Shown: positions 1,068 to 14,128, numbered from the stretch's first letter. The stretch: DNA of 64,000 bases from an uncultured Oxalicibacterium sp. (GCF_913776015.1 NZ_CAJYMD010000067.1:66274-130273), one strand, 5' to 3'. Program-made: numbers and translations. Notes: generated by a model not told the origin, from the letters alone.

Positions 1068-3860
1068 TCAGGCTGCCTTTACCGTTTCCCCATGCGCGAG
1101 CACGATCTTTTTCAGTTCAGGCACGCAAGAGCCGCAATTGGTGCCGCATTGGAGTCGTCCCTGCAATTGCGCCAGCGCTTCATCCGGCGTGCATTGCATG
1201 GTCGATAGCGCATCACCAATTTCGGTTTCCGCGACATTGAAGCAATTGCAGACGATGCGGCCACGCGACTTGAATGCCTGCGGCGGTTGCGACGACGGCA
1301 TCAGGAGCAGCCGACCCAGCGCGGCAACCGGTTGCTCGCTTTCCAGATATTCCTTGAGCCAGCTTTCAGCATTGGCATCGCCCGCCAATGCCACGGCTTG
1401 CAACTTGCCGTCTGCGATCAAAATGTGCCGCGCATTGCCACGGCGTTTATCGTCGTAGCGCAAGACCTGTTCGCCGGCAATACCGAAGTGCGCTTCGATC
1501 TCTGCCATCAATGTCGCGTCGGCCGGATAATCATCTCCGGCACGGAACAGCACCCCAACCCTGTCGCGACCGAACAGCGTGCAGGATGCGTACGCAAACT
1601 GCCGCATGAAGGGACGCAGCGCCGCCTGCAAGGCAAGCACCTGCGACTCGTCGATCCAGCCGAACACGACAAAGCGCCACGGCAATTCCGCCTTGAGCAT
1701 CTTGACGGCCGCATGCTTGAGTTCCGGCTGCTTGGAACTGGGATCAAATACCGGCGAGGTCAGCGCATTGACGCCATGTGTACCCTCACCATGCGGACCG
1801 CGGCCCGACAGATATTCCTCGCCCCAATGCATGCCGATGAAAACCTGTCCGGCACGCATGTCGTCGCCAATCGCCAGCGGCAGAATCTGCGAACCGTGTT
1901 TGCTCGTCACATGCACGAGATCGCCTTCCTTGAGCAGGCGGCGTTCGACATCGACCTTGGACATCACGACCGTCGGCTCGGAAGCATGCGAGAACAGTTG
2001 TGCCACCGTGCCGGTACGGCTCATGCCATGCCATTGATCGCGCAGGCGACCGGTCGTCAGATGAAAAGGAAAGCGCGCATCAACGCGCTCGGCTACCGGC
2101 TTGTAAACCGTGTTGACGAATTTTGCACGCCCCGAAGCCGTCGGAAAAATGCCGTCTTCATACAAACGTTTGCGACCGCTCGTCGCCCCTTCGGGAAACG
2201 GCCATTGCTGTGGCCCCTGCTGTTCCAGCAAGGCATAGGACAAGCCGGTGATATCGAGATCGCGACCGCGTGTGGATTCGCGATGTTCGTTCCAGATTTG
2301 CTCGGTGGTTTCGTATGGAAACAGGCTGGGCTTGCCCGGCGCGAGTAGCGCTTCCAGACGACGTGCAAAGGCCATGCCGATTTCCCAGTCGTGTTTCGTC
2401 TCACCAGGTTTATGCATGGCGGAACGCACACGCGTGATGCGGCGTTCCGAATTGGTGACCGTGCCTTCCTTCTCGCTCCACGTCGTCGCCGGCAACAGCA
2501 CATCGGCGTATTCGCACGTGACCGTGGTGCGATAGGCTTCCTGCACGACGACGAGTTCGGCCTTTTGCAAGGTTTCACGTATCAGCTTTTGTTCGGGCAT
2601 CGATTGCGCCGGATTGGTACAGGCAATCCACAGCAGCTTGATTTCGCCAGTGCGCACCGCTTCGAACATTTCGACCGCGCTCTTGCCCGGCTTGGCCGGC
2701 ACATCGTCCACGCCCCACAGCTTGGCGATTTCGGCGCGATGCTGCGGATTATCGAGATCACGGTGTGCGGACGACATGGTCGCCAGTCCGCCGACTTCGC
2801 GACCGCCCATCGCATTCGGTTGCCCCGTCAGAGAAAACGGACCTGCGCCCGGTTTGCCGATCTGGTGCGTTGCCAGATGCAGGTTGATGAGTGCCGCATT
2901 CTTGGCCGTACCCGACGACGATTGATTCAAGCCCTGGCAATACATCGACAGCGATGCTTTCGATGCGCCGAACCAACGCGCGGCCTGCATCAAATCGGCT
3001 TCCTTGATGCCACAGGTTTGCGCCACGTATTGCGGGGTGTATTCACGTACCGTGGCTTTCAGCTCCGAGAAACCTTCGGTATGTGCATCGATCCACGCGG
3101 CATCGATCATGTCTTCCCACAGGCAGATATGCAGCATGCCGTTGAACAGGGCGACATCGGTACCGGGCAGAATGGGCAGAAATAGATCGGCCTCGCGCGC
3201 AGTGTCGGTACGGCGCGGATCGGCGACGATGATCTTCAGGTTGGGATTGGCCTTGCGCGCATCTTCGATACGACGATAGATGATCGGATGTGCGTAGGCC
3301 GTATTCGAACCGACGATGAAAATCACTTCGGCGTGATCGATATCTTCGTAGCACGGCGGTGGCGCATCGGCCCCCAGCGTCTGCTTGTAGCCGGCCACCG
3401 CGCTCGACATGCACAGGCGCGAATTGGTATCGACGTTATTGGTGCCGATCAGCCCTTTAGCGAGCTTGTTGAAGACATAGTAATCCTCGGTCAGCAGCTG
3501 GCCCGACAGATAGAATCCGACACTGTCGGGCCCATGTTCGCGAATCGTGGCGGCAAACTTGCGCGCCAGATAATCGAGCGTGCTGTCCCAATCGCTACGG
3601 CTGCGCGCAGCGTCACGTGCCAAGCGCAATTCAGGATACAGCGCACGCGCCTGCTGCTGCAACGCAGGACGTGCCGTCAAATGCAGCGTACTGCCCTTGG
3701 TGCATAACCTGCCGAAATTGGCAGGATGATCGGGATCGCCACGCACACCCGTGACCTGCTGGCCATCGGTCTGTACGAGCACGCCACAGCCGACACCGCA
3801 GTAGCAGCAGGTGGCGCGTGTTTCATTGGGCAATAACCCGTTCACGTTCTTCTCCGGCAA
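1068..3860 (-). CDS. nasA: Assimilatory nitrate reductase catalytic subunit (Mo-bisPGD, N-terminal 4Fe-4S, C-terminal BFD-like 2Fe-2S)
   Basis: TCCYCGVGC...NFGRLCTKG, NNVDTNSRLCMSSA, SLTGQPNAMGGRE, TTGRLRDQWH, and C-terminal CNCF...CGTNCGSC. The true start may be GTG at 3845, which has a GGAG RBS. Confidence 0.95.
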   Translation of the reverse strand: MPEKNVNGLLPNETRATCCYCGVGCGVLVQTDGQQVTGVRGDPDHPANFGRLCTKGSTLHLTARPALQQQARALYPELRLARDAARSRSDWDSTLDYLARKFAATIREHGPDSVGFYLSGQLLTEDYYVFNKLAKGLIGTNNVDTNSRLCMSSAVAGYKQTLGADAPPPCYEDIDHAEVIFIVGSNTAYAHPIIYRRIEDARKANPNLKIIVADPRRTDTAREADLFLPILPGTDVALFNGMLHICLWEDMIDAAWIDAHTEGFSELKATVREYTPQYVAQTCGIKEADLMQAARWFGASKASLSMYCQGLNQSSSGTAKNAALINLHLATHQIGKPGAGPFSLTGQPNAMGGREVGGLATMSSAHRDLDNPQHRAEIAKLWGVDDVPAKPGKSAVEMFEAVRTGEIKLLWIACTNPAQSMPEQKLIRETLQKAELVVVQEAYRTTVTCEYADVLLPATTWSEKEGTVTNSERRITRVRSAMHKPGETKHDWEIGMAFARRLEALLAPGKPSLFPYETTEQIWNEHRESTRGRDLDITGLSYALLEQQGPQQWPFPEGATSGRKRLYEDGIFPTASGRAKFVNTVYKPVAERVDARFPFHLTTGRLRDQWHGMSRTGTVAQLFSHASEPTVVMSKVDVERRLLKEGDLVHVTSKHGSQILPLAIGDDMRAGQVFIGMHWGEEYLSGRGPHGEGTHGVNALTSPVFDPSSKQPELKHAAVKMLKAELPWRFVVFGWIDESQVLALQAALRPFMRQFAYASCTLFGRDRVGVLFRAGDDYPADATLMAEIEAHFGIAGEQVLRYDDKRRGNARHILIADGKLQAVALAGDANAESWLKEYLESEQPVAALGRLLLMPSSQPPQAFKSRGRIVCNCFNVAETEIGDALSTMQCTPDEALAQLQGRLQCGTNCGSCVPELKKIVLAHGETVKAA

Positions 3861-6783: not shown

Positions 6784-6799
6784 AGCAAAACAGATGCCA
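6784..6799 (-). promoter_or_regulatory. sigma54 -24/-12 promoter for nirBD-nasA-ybiB
   Basis: Minus strand reads TGGCATCTGTTTTGCT (GG-N10-GC), about 40 bp before the nirB ATG. Confidence 0.8.
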
Positions 6800-6967: not shown

Positions 6968-6983
6968 TGGCATAACACTTGCA
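6968..6983 (+). promoter_or_regulatory. sigma54 -24/-12 promoter for narK and the PP2C/kinase gene
   Basis: TGGCATAACACTTGCA (GG-N10-GC), 35 bp before the narK ATG. Confidence 0.8.
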
Positions 6984-7018
6984 TCTTTTCCCGCATCACT
7001 CAACTTGTGCGGACTGTC

Positions 7019-8233
7019 ATGCAAAAAACCTCGTTCTGGAAAGCCGGCCACACGCCGACACTGCTTTCCTCATTCTTCTATTTCGATCTCAGCTTCATGG
7101 TGTGGGTGATTCTGGGGCCGCTGGCGGTACAGATTTCTGCCGATGTCGGCCTCACCCCGGCGCAGAAAGGACTCGTGGTCGCCACGCCGCTGCTTGCCGG
7201 TGCATTGCTGCGCATGGTGATGGGCGTACTGGTCGATGCCCTGCAACCGAAAAAGGCGGGCGTGATCGGCCAGATTATCGTGATGGCAGGTCTGGTCTGG
7301 GCCTGGCTCGGCGATCTGCACAGCTATCACGCACTGCTCGCCTTTGGCATCATCCTCGGTGTTGCCGGTGCCGCCTTCGCGGTGGCGCTGCCGCTGGCTT
7401 CGCGCTGGTATCCGCCAGAACATCAGGGCATGGCACTCGGCATCGCCGGTGCCGGCAATTCCGGTACCGCACTGGCGGCCCTGTTTGCGCCGACGCTGGC
7501 AATTCATTTCGGCTGGCAAAACGTGTTCGGCCTGTGCCTGATTCCTTTGTCGGTTGCCTTCGTCGTGTATCTGGTATTCGCGAAGGATGCGCCGAATGCG
7601 CCGCCCGCCAAATCGCTGGTCGCGTACCTGCAAGTGCTGAAAGACAAGGATGCCTGGTGGTTCATGTTCTTCTACAGCGTCACCTTCGGCGGCTTTTCGG
7701 GTCTGGCATCTTCGCTGACGATCTACTTCAACGGGCAATATGGTTTGTCACCCGTCACGGCCGGTTACTTCACGGCAGCCTGCGTGTTCGCCGGTTCGAT
7801 GGTGCGCCCGATCGGCGGTCGTCTGGCCGATCGCATCGGTGGTATTCGCACGCTGTCGCTAATGTATATGCTGGCCGCCATCTTCCTGCTGATCGCCAGC
7901 ATCGGCCTGCCGTCGCCGATCATGGCGGCACTCGTGTTCGTGCTGGCGATGCTGTCGCTGGGTACCGGCAACGGTGCTGTGTTCCAGTTGGTGCCACAAC
8001 GCTTCCGCAAGGAGATCGGTGTCATGACTGGCCTGGTCGGCATGGCTGGCGGTATCGGCGGTTTCTATCTGGCTTCCAGCCTCGGCTATTCCAAGCAGTT
8101 GACGGGAACCTATCAAGCTGGCCTGATTTTGTTTGCCGCGCTGGCCATCGTTGCACTGATCGGTCTCTCGACCGTCAAGAAACGCTGGCGCACCACATGG
8201 GGCAGCGCCGCCATGACTAACGCCAAGATATGA
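7019..8233 (+). CDS. narK: MFS nitrate/nitrite transporter (NarK/NasA family)
   Basis: Start trimmed to MQKTSFWKAGH. Has about 12 hydrophobic segments and the nitrate signatures FAVALPLASRWYP..QG.ALGIAGAGN and GNGAVFQLVP. Confidence 0.93.
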   Translation: MQKTSFWKAGHTPTLLSSFFYFDLSFMVWVILGPLAVQISADVGLTPAQKGLVVATPLLAGALLRMVMGVLVDALQPKKAGVIGQIIVMAGLVWAWLGDLHSYHALLAFGIILGVAGAAFAVALPLASRWYPPEHQGMALGIAGAGNSGTALAALFAPTLAIHFGWQNVFGLCLIPLSVAFVVYLVFAKDAPNAPPAKSLVAYLQVLKDKDAWWFMFFYSVTFGGFSGLASSLTIYFNGQYGLSPVTAGYFTAACVFAGSMVRPIGGRLADRIGGIRTLSLMYMLAAIFLLIASIGLPSPIMAALVFVLAMLSLGTGNGAVFQLVPQRFRKEIGVMTGLVGMAGGIGGFYLASSLGYSKQLTGTYQAGLILFAALAIVALIGLSTVKKRWRTTWGSAAMTNAKI

Positions 8234-8267
8234 TGCGCCCTGCTTTCGTGACAACGCCGGATTCGCC

Positions 8268-9980
8268 ATGCCACTGACCCTTTCTGCCGGCCATGCCTCA
8301 CGCGCCGGACTGCGGCCAGCCAACGAAGATTTCGTCGGCATGGTGATGCCGCCCGAGCCGGATCTGTCGAGCAAGGGTTTTCTCGCCGCCGTGGCCGATG
8401 GCGTCTCGGGCAATGATGGTGGTCGGCAGGCATCCGAATACACGGTGCGCGGCCTACTGGGCGATTACTACGCCACCTCCGATACGTGGCCCGTGACACA
8501 ATCGCTGGATCGCGTGATCAAGGCCATCAATAGCTGGGTACAGCAACAGGGTTCGATCCGCCCCGAACTGGCCGGCATGGCCTCGACGCTGACGACGCTG
8601 GTGCTGCGCGGCCATTTCTATTACTTCGCGCATGTGGGTGATACGCGTCTGTACCTGCTGCGCGACGACAAGCTCACACTACTAACCACCGACCACGTGT
8701 GGGATCGTCCCGAAATGCAGCACGTGCTGACACGTGCGATCGGCCTCGATTCACGCCTCGCCATTGATCACGGCATGGGCAATCTGCAGCAGGGCGATGT
8801 GTTCCTGCTGGCTTGCGATGGCGTGTGGGATACCTTATCGCATTACGAATTGCAGGAGCACCTGCAAACGGTCAGCACAGAGCGCGATGCCGAAACCGTT
8901 GCCAACGCCCTGCTCGATCATGCACTCGAAAAAGGTTCGCGCGACAACGTGAGCGCCATCGTCATACGCGTGCAGAACCTGCCCGAGATGAACTTGCGCG
9001 ATGCTGTTTCGGAATCGCAGCGGTTGCCCATTCCGCCGCGCCTCAAGGTCGGGCAGACCATCGACAGCTATCGCATCGAAGAACAGATTCATGCGTCGGC
9101 CACTACGCTGCTCTATCGCGTGAGCGAGCTGCGCCAGACCGGCGCAGCACCGCGCATGCTGGTACTGAAAACGCTGCATCCCGACAAGGCCGACGATCCG
9201 CACGAGCGTTCCGCCTTCGCCCATGAAGAATGGCTGTCGCGGCGTGTCGTCGCGCGCTTCTTTCCGCAGGCAATCGCTGCCGAAAACAAAAGCTATCACT
9301 ACTATCTGACGACGTGGCATGAAGGCAGCACGCTGCAGCAGCATCTCGATGTGGGCGAGCATTTCACGATTCCTGATGCGTTAGCGCATGGCAGCAAACT
9401 GATCCGCGCCATCGGTGCGCTGCATCGGCGCAGCATCATTCACCGCGATATCAAACCGGCCAACATTCATCTCGGCACGGATGGCGAGTTGCGAATTCTC
9501 GATCTGGGTGTGGCGCAATCGGGGCTGGAAGCCGAAGACGAAGTGCGTGCACCGCGCGCCGGCACGCCGTCCTTCCTGGCCCCCGAACAGTTCGATGCCG
9601 CACCTGCCTCACGCGCCACGGATCTGTACGCGGTTGGCGTGACGCTGTATCTGCTGCTGACGCGCCATTTTCCCTATGGCGAGATCGAACCGTTCCAGTC
9701 GCCGCGCTTCGGCACACCGGTTGCGCCAAGCCGCTATCGTCGCGATCTGCCGATGTGGCTGGAGAACGTATTGCTCAAGGCAGTAGCGCGCGATCCTGCA
9801 GATCGCTTTGAAACGGCAGAAGAATTTCAGTTGGCACTCGAACGCGGTGCAGCGCGACCTATCGATCGTCTGCCGAAAAAGCCCTTGGCAGAGCGCGACC
9901 CAACCAGTTTGTGGCGTGCGATTGCGCTGGTATCGGTGGTGACGAATCTTTTGCTGCTTTATCTTTTGGTGGTGCGCTAA
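8268..9980 (+). CDS. Bifunctional PP2C-type phosphatase / Hanks-type Ser/Thr kinase with C-terminal membrane anchor
   Basis: PP2C motifs RPANED, VADGVSG, HVGDTR, LTTDH, CDGVWD, SRDNV. Kinase motifs VLK, HRDIKPANI, DLG, GTPSFLAPE, DLYAVG. Ends in a hydrophobic tail. Confidence 0.9.
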   Translation: MPLTLSAGHASRAGLRPANEDFVGMVMPPEPDLSSKGFLAAVADGVSGNDGGRQASEYTVRGLLGDYYATSDTWPVTQSLDRVIKAINSWVQQQGSIRPELAGMASTLTTLVLRGHFYYFAHVGDTRLYLLRDDKLTLLTTDHVWDRPEMQHVLTRAIGLDSRLAIDHGMGNLQQGDVFLLACDGVWDTLSHYELQEHLQTVSTERDAETVANALLDHALEKGSRDNVSAIVIRVQNLPEMNLRDAVSESQRLPIPPRLKVGQTIDSYRIEEQIHASATTLLYRVSELRQTGAAPRMLVLKTLHPDKADDPHERSAFAHEEWLSRRVVARFFPQAIAAENKSYHYYLTTWHEGSTLQQHLDVGEHFTIPDALAHGSKLIRAIGALHRRSIIHRDIKPANIHLGTDGELRILDLGVAQSGLEAEDEVRAPRAGTPSFLAPEQFDAAPASRATDLYAVGVTLYLLLTRHFPYGEIEPFQSPRFGTPVAPSRYRRDLPMWLENVLLKAVARDPADRFETAEEFQLALERGAARPIDRLPKKPLAERDPTSLWRAIALVSVVTNLLLLYLLVVR

Positions 9981-10003
9981 GACACTAAGACGCTGAAAAA
10001 CAA

Positions 10004-10037
10004 AACGGCCTGCAGCAAACGTGCAGGCCGTTCTTTT
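10004..10037. terminator. Likely bidirectional intrinsic terminator between convergent genes
   Basis: aacggcctgca/tgcaggccgtt stem flanked by A-rich and T-rich runs. Confidence 0.8.
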
Positions 10038-10055: not shown

Positions 10056-10808
10056 TCAGGCTACGGCCTCTTCCAGCGCCGCTTTGACCAGATCATCGAT
10101 CTCACCGGTAATACGCGACAGCACGCCAGCCACCACCGAAAATTCTTTGCCGGCTTCCCCGGCACGCGCCGCAACGATACGGGCATTGAATGCCACCATC
10201 TTGGCTTCGCGTGCAATGGTTTCAATATCCGTCATCACGCCATGCAATTGCGCGTGCATCAACCGCGCATGCTTTTTCGATTCGGCTTCATAGATCGCCG
10301 TAAGTTGATTCAGCACGGCCAGCAAGGCGGTCGTGCCATCCACCAGTTCTTCCAGCAGTTGTGGCGCATGGCGCAACTTGTCGTCGATTGCATTGAGCGC
10401 ACGCTCGGCCAGATCCATGAAGTGACGTATCTTGCGATCACCTTCCTGTGTACCGAAATACGCCTGTTCAAGTTCGCCACAGAATACGCCTGGCAATTGC
10501 CCTGAAGGCCGCATGAGCAACTGGTGCGCGTCGCGGAATAGCTTGAGTGCTTCGCGTGCCGTGCTCGTGGCATTCTCGCGCCCCTGCGCACCGAGCACCG
10601 CATACAAGACCAGCCGTTGCGAGGTAAAACGACGACGCCCCGACAGATTGATCAGCATGCCGAACACTTCACCCGACAGCGGGACGATACCGCTGTCCTG
10701 CTCGGCTTCCTGATGGATAAGCGGCGCAGTTCCGACTGCCGGCACCACGGCAGACCGATCTGCATGCTTGTCGTTTGCGGCCATGGGCAGCGTGATCGTC
10801 TGCCGCAT
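10056..10808 (-). CDS. Soluble protein with NarX/PilJ-type sensor motif and a minimal chemoreceptor signalling hairpin
   Basis: INLSGRRRFTSQR resembles the P-box/N-box. C-terminal IAREAKMVAFNARIVAARAGEAGKEFSVVA resembles the MCP tip. No transmembrane segment. Alternative start at 10784. Confidence 0.8.
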   Translation of the reverse strand: MRQTITLPMAANDKHADRSAVVPAVGTAPLIHQEAEQDSGIVPLSGEVFGMLINLSGRRRFTSQRLVLYAVLGAQGRENATSTAREALKLFRDAHQLLMRPSGQLPGVFCGELEQAYFGTQEGDRKIRHFMDLAERALNAIDDKLRHAPQLLEELVDGTTALLAVLNQLTAIYEAESKKHARLMHAQLHGVMTDIETIAREAKMVAFNARIVAARAGEAGKEFSVVAGVLSRITGEIDDLVKAALEEAVA

Positions 10809-14112: not shown

Positions 14113-14128
14113 AGCAATTCATATGCCA
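14113..14128 (-). promoter_or_regulatory. sigma54 -24/-12 promoter for nasFED and the mini-receptor gene
   Basis: Minus strand TGGCATATGAATTGCT (GG-N10-GC). Confidence 0.85.

What the first reader, a model, noticed from the sequence alone, without database searches (positions are those of the whole stretch)
8268..9980. Tail-anchored PP2C phosphatase-Ser/Thr kinase fusion co-transcribed with the nitrate transporter
Seen: all PP2C metal-binding motifs and the kinase catalytic core (Lys, HRDIKPAN, DLG, APE) are intact, but the Gly-rich loop is degenerate (IHASATTLLY). A single C-terminal TM anchor is present, and the gene starts 34 bp after narK. Established from memory, to be verified: a similar fusion sits in the Pseudomonas aeruginosa nitrate-assimilation operon without a defined substrate. 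Inference: a self-contained phosphorylation switch acting on NarK or the reductases, i.e. post-translational control of nitrate uptake.
Basis: partly seen in the sequence, partly recalled or inferred. Interest (0 to 1): 0.65.

Follow-up and report, generated by a model that had tools for sequence, protein, structure and literature searches.

The report
Nitrate transporter's tethered kinase-phosphatase partner
This gene encodes a membrane-tethered enzyme carrying both a protein kinase and the opposing phosphatase; the family is common, already annotated and untested, and comparison across genomes now points to two threonines in the tail of the neighbouring nitrate transporter as its likely target.

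Summary
ORF 8268-9980 (+) encodes 570 aa: an N-terminal PP2C phosphatase, a Hanks Ser/Thr kinase with a glycine-free P-loop, and a C-terminal transmembrane helix. It starts 34 nt after a nasA-type narK (7019-8233). A sigma-54 promoter precedes the pair and a terminator follows it.

The gene is not new. It belongs to the family NCBI names 'bifunctional protein-serine/threonine kinase/phosphatase' (PA1782/ppkB of Pseudomonas). Full-length relatives occur in 113 of 401 sampled Pseudomonadota genomes. A 2013 genome paper already proposed that it phosphorylates the transporter, and this scan holds 35 notes with the same keywords, at least eight on this family. No functional study was found.

New here: the transporter's C-terminal tail reads RWRTTWG (T392/T393) in every sampled orthologue whose genome has a kinase of this subfamily (52 of 52). 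This holds even when the two genes are unlinked. The Thr-Thr pair is replaced in 30 of 33 orthologues from genomes without the kinase, and one of the three exceptions keeps a kinase remnant. Five of seven well-supported independent contrasts agree and none oppose (p = 0.06). In the AlphaFold2 model the tail is unstructured from residue 387, with low confidence from 392.

Best reading: a phospho-switch on the NarK tail controlling nitrate uptake. Biochemistry is untested.

The parts
6968..6983 (+). Sigma-54 (-24/-12) promoter of the narK-kinase pair (TGGCAT-N5-TTGCA), 36 nt before the narK ATG
   Evidence: Exact match to TGGCAYNNNNNTTGCW. The window has only three exact matches, and all three lie before nitrate-assimilation operons (6784-6799 minus strand before nirB, 14113-14128 minus strand before nrtA).
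7019..8233 (+). narK (nasA-type NNP nitrate/nitrite transporter, 404 aa)
   Evidence: MFS_1 E 3e-44. TIGR00886 scores 284 bits, below its 311.7 cut-off. E. coli NarK and NarU structures match at E 1e-18, and the nitrate-binding Arg and the GAGNSG / GTGNG signatures are aligned. AlphaFold2 model pLDDT 85, pTM 0.86.
8183..8203 (+). Codons of the NarK tail motif RWRTTWG (R389-G395). T392 and T393 (8192-8197) are the proposed phospho-acceptors.
   Evidence: The Thr-Thr pair is present in 52 of 52 sampled orthologues from genomes with a kinase of this subfamily, and replaced in 30 of 33 from genomes without. All four Thr codons are used at both positions in 147 loci. The tail is unstructured from residue 387, with pLDDT below 50 for 392-404.
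8234..8267 (+). 34-nt narK-kinase spacer
   Evidence: No promoter-like or terminator-like site in the spacer; sequence read.
8268..9980 (+). Gene for the tail-anchored bifunctional PP2C phosphatase / Ser-Thr kinase (570 aa, PA1782/ppkB family)
8280..8978 (+). PP2C phosphatase domain (about residues 5-237)
   Evidence: Pfam PP2C_2, PP2C and SpoIIE. D21, D44, G45, D184 and D226 are kept in at least 121 of 124 family representatives. Foldseek matches PstP 1txo (E 5e-17, TM 0.77) and PppA 6jkv.
9051..9857 (+). Hanks-type Ser/Thr kinase domain (about residues 262-530) with a glycine-free P-loop
   Evidence: Pkinase E 6e-24. K301, E320, H392, D394, N399, D412, G414 and P439-E440 are kept in at least 119 of 124 representatives (A438 in 113). 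The P-loop is glycine-poor family-wide, consensus L-H-x-S-x-R-S-x-V-Y. Foldseek matches PknB 3oro and 1o6y, TM about 0.8.
9882..9917 (+). Conserved juxtamembrane motif (residues 539-550, family consensus P-L-x-E-R-[ND]-P-x-x-F-W-[QK])
   Evidence: P539, L540, E542, R543, P545 and W549 are each the majority residue across 124 representatives.
9918..9974 (+). C-terminal transmembrane anchor (residues 551-569), with one residue after it
   Evidence: Hydropathy maximum 2.6. Modelled as helix 545-569. The family is hydrophobic up to its C-terminus.
10002..10034 (.). Bidirectional intrinsic terminator closing the narK-kinase unit and the convergent nrt operon
   Evidence: 11-13 bp G+C-rich stem with a T-run on both strands.

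Best explanation
The gene encodes a tail-anchored cytoplasmic enzyme of the PA1782/ppkB family, with a PP2C phosphatase fused to a Hanks Ser/Thr kinase. It is made together with the nasA-type nitrate transporter NarK from an NtrC/sigma-54 promoter when nitrogen is scarce.

The C-terminal helix and the conserved juxtamembrane motif hold the enzyme at the membrane next to NarK. The kinase most likely phosphorylates the Thr-Thr pair (T392/T393) in the transporter's flexible cytoplasmic tail (RWRTTWG), and the fused phosphatase removes the phosphate. The ratio of the two activities would then set transporter activity, giving fast post-translational control of nitrate uptake.

Shown: domain anatomy, family-wide conservation of the catalytic residues, gene adjacency across classes, and the dependence of the Thr-Thr pair on the presence of the kinase.

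Inferred: co-transcription, catalysis, that the threonines are acceptors rather than a docking site, the input signal, and whether phosphorylation switches transport on or off.
For: Anatomy and conservation
- The catalytic residues of both domains are kept in more than 95% of 124 diverged representatives.
- The markers of Ser/Thr specificity are present: HRD-x-K-x-x-N and G-T before APE.
- The folds match PstP and PknB.

Gene linkage
- narK lies directly upstream in all 80 Oxalobacteraceae loci.
- narK-kinase-nirB is the order in Pseudomonas loci.
- A NarK-family gene is adjacent in 27 of 30 phylum-wide loci, including convergent and divergent arrangements that cannot be explained by sharing an operon.

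The tail
- RWRTTWG is present in 52 of 52 sampled NarK orthologues whose genome has a kinase of this subfamily.
- The Thr-Thr pair is replaced by varied residues (KT, AT, RH, AR, LH, NT, QT, SG, AQ, TS, AS, KS, TA and others) in 30 of 33 orthologues from genomes with no kinase.
- In one family, the tail correctly told in advance which genomes carry an unlinked kinase (3 of 3) and which carry none (9 of 9).
- One of the three exceptions keeps a short kinase remnant right after narK.
- On a NarK tree built without the tail, the kinase state changes at least 10 times. Among 7 well-supported independent pairs, 5 agree, 0 oppose and 2 tie.
- Of 404 NarK columns, the most kinase-associated are D209, R330 and T392, all on the cytoplasmic face, followed by G395 and T393.
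- The constraint acts on the protein: all four Thr codons are used at both positions.
- The tail is unstructured after TM12, with pLDDT below 50 for 392-404.
Against: - No experiment on any family member was found.
- The phylogenetically independent test is underpowered: 5 to 0, p = 0.06.
- Three kinase-less genomes keep the Thr-Thr pair.
- The P-loop lacks all glycines, so ATP binding is not assured.
- The more distant transporter partners (NarK2-type, FNT channel) have other tails, so the RWRTTWG site cannot be universal for the family.
- No sensor domain explains what sets the kinase/phosphatase balance.
- Co-transcription rests on sequence signals only.
Confidence: 0.55

Rival explanations
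1. Transceptor model. The NarK tail is a docking or activating element rather than the substrate. The enzyme reads the transporter's state through the tail and the membrane helix, and phosphorylates another protein such as NasT, the reductases or PII, so that nitrate flux is reported to gene expression or metabolism.
For: - The enzyme has no sensor domain of its own.
- Conservation of the tail would also be expected for a docking site.
- Two other cytoplasmic NarK positions, D209 and R330, also track the kinase, which suggests a surface rather than a single site.
- In some genomes the kinase is unlinked to narK and sits next to an MCP-like protein, a LysR regulator or moeA.
Against: - What decays when the kinase is lost is specifically the two hydroxyl residues, while the W-R-x-x-W frame often stays.
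- No second conserved partner gene is seen across the loci.
Confidence: 0.22
2. Pseudokinase model. Because the glycine-rich loop is missing, the kinase domain does not transfer phosphate. It serves as a scaffold or regulator for a membrane-recruited PP2C phosphatase.
For: The P-loop has no glycine here and is glycine-poor throughout the family. The NCBIfam kinase models score far below their cut-offs.
Against: K301, E320, HRD, N399, D412-x-G and APE are kept in more than 95% of 124 diverged members, which is not the pattern of pseudokinases. The replaced loop has its own conserved pattern (H-x-S-x-R-S), which suggests an alternative way of holding ATP.
Confidence: 0.1
3. No functional coupling. 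The kinase gene simply travels with one clade of narK genes, and the Thr-Thr tail is a marker of that clade.
For: Related genomes share both traits, and the independent-pairs test does not reach 0.05.
Against: - Kinase-plus and kinase-minus NarKs are interleaved on the tree, with at least 10 changes.
- The replacements for Thr-Thr are diverse.
- The rule holds when the genes are unlinked or divergently arranged.
- A kinase remnant lies beside one Thr-Thr narK.
Confidence: 0.05

Closest known systems
PA1782 ('ppkB') of Pseudomonas aeruginosa and PputUW4_03641 of Pseudomonas sp. UW4; NCBI product name 'bifunctional protein-serine/threonine kinase/phosphatase'
   Same: - Same architecture and length.
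- Same position directly after the nasA/narK nitrate transporter in the assimilation cluster (PMC3596284, PMC6954232).
- About 45% identity over the full length.
- The partner transporter carries the same RWRTTWG tail.
   Different: Here narK-kinase is a two-gene unit divergent from nirBD-nasC. In Pseudomonas the order is narK-kinase-nirB on one strand, usually preceded by nasS-nasT. Neither protein has been characterised.
PknB/PstP of Mycobacterium tuberculosis and Stk1/Stp1 of Firmicutes (separate Hanks kinase and PP2C phosphatase pairs)
   Same: These are the closest solved folds for the two halves, with TM about 0.8. Both pair a kinase with an opposing PP2C phosphatase on shared substrates (established knowledge).
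   Different: - Those are two proteins, whereas this is one chain with the phosphatase first.
- This protein has no PASTA or other extracytoplasmic sensor.
- It has a tail anchor instead of a mid-protein transmembrane helix, and its P-loop has no glycine.
- NCBIfam scores are far below the equivalog cut-offs: 137 against 230 and 122 against 450 bits.
Phospho-regulation of eukaryotic nitrate transporters: Arabidopsis NRT1.1 Thr101 by CIPK23, Arabidopsis NRT2.1 C-terminal Ser501 with the PP2C phosphatase CEPH, and Hansenula Ynt1
   Same: Transport activity is set by phosphorylation of a cytoplasmic site. NRT2.1 and Ynt1 belong to the same NNP family as NarK, and in NRT2.1 the site is in the C-terminal tail and is removed by a PP2C enzyme. 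This rests on my own knowledge; the Arabidopsis and Hansenula precedents are cited in PMC3596284.
   Different: The eukaryotic kinases and phosphatases are separate soluble proteins unrelated to this fusion. The tail motifs are unrelated. The bacterial case is only predicted.
Cyanobacterial PII / PphA control of nitrate uptake
   Same: A PP2C phosphatase (tPphA, a Foldseek match at rank 21) takes part in post-translational, ammonium-responsive control of nitrate uptake (established knowledge).
   Different: There the phosphoprotein is PII and the transporter is the NrtABCD ABC system. No kinase is fused and no membrane tether is present.

Membership tests
Bifunctional protein-Ser/Thr kinase/phosphatase (PA1782/ppkB family) | N-terminal PP2C domain followed by a Hanks kinase domain in one chain of about 550-600 aa | tested here: met
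   Pfam domains. Full-length alignment (residues 3-567) to relatives in 113 of 401 genomes. About 130 of the 150 best cluster representatives are 540-640 aa. NCBI names appear on the hits.
Bifunctional protein-Ser/Thr kinase/phosphatase (PA1782/ppkB family) | Glycine-poor P-loop with the family pattern L-H-x-S-x-R-S-x-V-Y | tested here: met
   The window has IHASATTLLY: H275, S277 and Y283 are kept, and R279/S280 are replaced by T/T, as in all Oxalobacteraceae members.
Bifunctional protein-Ser/Thr kinase/phosphatase (PA1782/ppkB family) | Conserved juxtamembrane motif and a transmembrane helix at the very C-terminus | tested here: met
   PLAERDPTSLWR followed by hydrophobic residues 551-569.
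Bifunctional protein-Ser/Thr kinase/phosphatase (PA1782/ppkB family) | Encoded beside a nitrate/nitrite transporter gene | tested here: met
   34 nt after narK. Adjacent in 80 of 80 Oxalobacteraceae loci and in 27 of 30 phylum-wide loci.
PP2C/PPM metal-dependent protein phosphatases | Metal-binding Asp residues of motifs 1, 2, 8 and 11, and the PP2C fold | tested here: met
   D21, D44, D184 and D226 are present and conserved. Foldseek matches PstP and PppA.
PP2C/PPM metal-dependent protein phosphatases | Mn2+/Mg2+-dependent phosphoserine/phosphothreonine phosphatase activity | not testable with these tools
   Needs an enzyme assay.
Hanks-type (eukaryote-like) Ser/Thr protein kinases | Catalytic Lys, alpha-C Glu, HRD-x-K-x-x-N, D-[FL]-G, G-T and APE | tested here: met
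   K301, E320, 392-399, 412-414, 432-433 and 438-440.
Hanks-type (eukaryote-like) Ser/Thr protein kinases | Glycine-rich loop GxGxxG | tested here: not met
   No glycine in 274-283, and this holds across the family.
PknB/Stk1 PASTA kinases and Stp1 phosphatases (NCBIfam equivalogs) | Score above the curated cut-off; extracellular PASTA domains | tested here: not met
   122 bits against a cut-off of 450, and 137 against 230. There is no extracytoplasmic part.
NNP (NarK/NasA) nitrate/nitrite porters, for the partner gene 7019-8233 | 12-helix MFS fold, two nitrate-binding Arg residues and the two nitrate signature motifs | tested here: met
   R65 and R263 align with the E. coli NarK arginines (R89 and R305 by my own knowledge of the E. 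coli protein). GAGNSG and GTGNG are present. The model has pTM 0.86. TIGR00886 scores 284 bits, just under its cut-off of 311.7.

The most novel reading that the evidence does not exclude
Bacteria with a nasA-type nitrate transporter use a dedicated, membrane-tethered kinase/phosphatase to write and erase phosphate on a Thr-Thr pair in the transporter's disordered C-terminal tail (RWRTTWG). This would be a bacterial counterpart, evolved independently, of the tail phospho-switch of plant NRT2.1, and the first transporter-dedicated Hanks kinase/PP2C pair with a defined site.
Probability: 0.45. Interest if true: 0.7.

Novelty: new member of a known kind. Interest (0 to 1): 0.45.

Why it matters
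How heterotrophic bacteria adjust nitrate uptake within seconds, for instance when ammonium appears, is not understood for NarK-type assimilatory transporters. This family is present in over a quarter of the sampled Pseudomonadota, including Pseudomonas and abundant marine and soil groups, so a defined mechanism would apply widely in nitrogen cycling.

The gene and the general idea were already known.

Tried and rejected
- My first NarK query started one base off (7020). It was out of frame and gave false identities of 31-62%. The positions were right but the identities are void. This was corrected: 77-94% within Oxalobacteraceae and 64-68% in Pseudomonas.
- The conserved N-terminal motif of NarK (F-W-K-x-G-H-x-P-T-L) is kept with or without the kinase, so it is not kinase-specific.
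- Literature searches for any functional study of PA1782, ppkB, PA1783 phosphorylation, or NarK with PP2C found only predictions and expression tables. The 2011 review on bacterial nitrate assimilation is not held.
- A search for a kinase remnant beside the Thr-Thr narK of G100/G008 found none, so that genus remains a true exception.
- The MCP-like protein next to the unlinked kinases of one genus resembles the window's orf250 only at the MCP hairpin tip.
- G844 looked like a counter-example because it has a kinase but no Thr-Thr pair. Its kinase is a 30%-identity paralogue that follows an FNT nitrite channel, so I left it out of the tallies and say so here.
- The AlphaFold2 model of the fusion is only moderate (pLDDT 74, pTM 0.53), so I drew no conclusion about how the two domains sit against each other.

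Full report
**What is there**

ORF 8268-9980 (+) encodes 570 aa. Pfam finds a PP2C phosphatase in the first 235 residues and a protein kinase domain at about 262-530.

- PP2C: RPANED, DGVSG, GDTR, DGVWD, DN.
- Kinase: K301, E320, HRDIKPAN 392-399, DLG 412-414, GT 432-433, APE 438-440.
- P-loop position: IHASATTLLY, with no glycine.

The only strongly hydrophobic segment is 551-569, and one residue follows it. The protein is therefore cytoplasmic and tail-anchored, with no outside domain.

An AlphaFold2 model (pLDDT 74) finds PstP and PppA for the first half and PknB for the second half as best solved matches. No solved structure spans both halves. NCBIfam equivalog models for Stp1 and PknB score far below their cut-offs.

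**Surroundings**

narK (a nasA-type NNP transporter, 404 aa) runs from ATG 7019 to 8233, and 34 nt separate it from the fusion gene. nirB-nirD-nasC lie divergently on the minus strand. nrtABD, a small PilJ/MCP-tip protein and nasT lie downstream on the minus strand.

The window holds three exact sigma-54 -24/-12 matches, and all three lie before nitrate-assimilation operons: narK (6968-6983), nirB and nrtA. There is no promoter-like or terminator-like site in the spacer, and a strong bidirectional terminator lies at 10002-10034. A two-gene, NtrC-type operon is therefore the sensible reading.

**The family**

- The closest proteins (61-80% identity) come from Oxalicibacterium, Herminiimonas, Noviherbaspirillum, Undibacterium and Polynucleobacter. 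Many carry the NCBI name 'bifunctional protein-serine/threonine kinase/phosphatase'.
- Full-length relatives occur in 113 of 401 sampled Pseudomonadota genomes.
- At least 1150 clusters at 50% identity match at E below 1e-30.
- In 124 diverged representatives the PP2C metal ligands and the kinase catalytic residues are kept in more than 95%.
- The glycine-poor P-loop is a family trait with its own consensus (L-H-x-S-x-R-S-x-V-Y).
- The anchor is preceded by a conserved juxtamembrane motif (P-L-x-E-R-[ND]-P-x-x-F-W-[QK]).

**What the literature says**

- PA1782 of P. aeruginosa is listed only as a predicted kinase (PMC11197903, PMC8560001).
- It is tabulated as 'ppkB' between nasA (PA1783) and nirB (PA1781), with the same induction (PMC6954232).
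- nasA and nirBD are NtrBC-dependent (PMC7214821).
- The Pseudomonas sp. UW4 genome paper (PMC3596284, 2013) already proposed transporter phosphorylation by analogy with Arabidopsis and Hansenula.
- I found no functional study.

A keyword look-up of this scan's own notes returned 35 findings, and the eight shown, all followed up, describe this same family. None mentions the transporter tail.

**Linkage to the transporter**

- narK is directly upstream in all 80 Oxalobacteraceae loci.
- Pseudomonas loci read narK-kinase-nirB.
- In 27 of 30 phylum-wide loci a NarK-family gene is adjacent. This includes distant members at 35% identity, which are paired with longer NarK2-type porters.
- In some lineages the two genes are convergent or divergent yet still adjacent. 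That argues for a functional tie beyond shared transcription.

**The new result**

Partnered NarKs from beta-, gamma- and other Proteobacteria share a near-invariant C-terminal tail, V-K-x-R-W-R-T-T-W-G. I then collected NasA-type orthologues (at least 47% identical) from a phylum-wide sample, a class-wide sample and five family-level samples. For each genome I asked whether the kinase is present anywhere.

| Kinase in the genome | Thr-Thr kept | Thr-Thr replaced |
|---|---|---|
| Present (this subfamily) | 52 | 0 |
| Absent | 3 | 30 |

These are rows after thinning close relatives. Fisher's exact test gives 6.5e-20, but it is not corrected for relatedness.

- The replacements are varied, while the W-R-x-x-W frame often stays.
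- Of the three exceptions, two are one genus, and the third keeps a roughly 140-bp kinase remnant right after narK.
- In family f50 the tail served as a blind predictor. The three Thr-Thr genomes all proved to have an unlinked kinase, and nine non-Thr-Thr genomes had none.
- In Pseudomonadaceae, 34 of 36 loci have the adjacent pair and all of those read Thr-Thr. The one genome with RWRTAW has no kinase.
- On a NarK tree built without the last 24 residues, the kinase state changes at least 10 times. Of 7 well-supported independent pairs, 5 go the same way, none the other way, and 2 tie. The sign test gives p = 0.06, which is the best five informative pairs can reach.
- A scan of all 404 columns puts D209 (central loop), R330 (loop between TM10 and TM11) and T392 at the top, with G395 and T393 next. 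All five lie on the cytoplasmic face.
- All four Thr codons occur at both positions in 147 loci, so the constraint acts on the protein.
- The NarK model (pLDDT 85, pTM 0.86) ends TM12 at residue 386. The tail beyond it has no secondary structure, and confidence falls below 50 from residue 392. The fold therefore does not explain the tail's conservation.

**Reading**

The simplest account is that the tethered enzyme writes and erases phosphate on T392/T393 of NarK, which would give rapid control of nitrate uptake. Fusing the kinase and phosphatase in one chain is the design known from other bifunctional converter enzymes; this point is general knowledge, not tested here.

The data do not say:
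- whether the threonines are acceptors or a docking element;
- what sets the balance of the two activities;
- whether phosphorylation activates or inhibits transport.

The site also cannot be universal for the family. NarK2-type partners carry a different conserved tail, and one paralogue follows an FNT nitrite channel.

**Verdict**

The gene is a new member of a known, annotated but uncharacterised family. The hypothesis is old and has been rediscovered repeatedly in this scan. The added value here is a specific, testable target site backed by comparative evidence that is strong in raw counts and borderline after correction for relatedness.

Noticed in passing
window 10056-10808 (-); L195:3-1352 (+); L196:3176-4573 (-); L093:133-1482 (+): The window's 250-aa soluble PilJ/MCP-tip protein lies convergent to the kinase gene. 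In one alphaproteobacteria-like genus, where the kinase is unlinked to narK, an MCPsignal-domain protein sits directly upstream of the kinase on the same strand; it resembles orf250 only at the hairpin tip. In another genome the gene upstream of the kinase is an ANTAR-PilJ fusion. These may be recurring sensory partners of the kinase.
   Followed up: partly
L148, L150-L153, L155-L159, L162, L175-L178, L183, L192-L193 (narK loci of kinase-less genomes): NasA-type narK genes in genomes without the kinase usually have an NrtA-like (nasS-type) gene, often with nasT, directly upstream. The four kinase-adjacent loci of that family (f48) do not. Pseudomonas has both, so the two modules are not strictly alternatives.
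   Followed up: partly
L102-L110 (upstream porter genes): The longer NarK2-type porters paired with distant kinase relatives end in their own conserved tail, E-P-[KGE]-G-x-M-x-E ... D-G-[TS]-[IVL]-E-[KR]-I-E-[LIV]-H. It contains a conserved Ser/Thr and could be the equivalent target site in that subfamily.
   Followed up: no
L174:594-1439 (+) and 1489-3231 (+); L108:154-1443 (+): A 30%-identity paralogue of the enzyme follows an FNT (NirC-type) nitrite channel, and the NarK of that genome has lost the Thr-Thr pair. In another locus the upstream gene is an alginate-export-type porin.
   Followed up: partly
L132:4770-4912: A genome whose sister has narK-kinase keeps only a short two-frame remnant of the kinase HRD region right after narK. 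This is a recent deletion caught in the act.
   Followed up: yes
window 6784-6799 (-), 6968-6983 (+), 14113-14128 (-): The only three exact sigma-54 consensus matches in 64 kb all lie before the three nitrate-assimilation transcription units.
   Followed up: partly
window 6991-7012 (+): A short hairpin-capable repeat (CCGCA ... TGCGG) lies between the sigma-54 site and the narK ATG. I did not test it as a NasT/ANTAR target.
   Followed up: no
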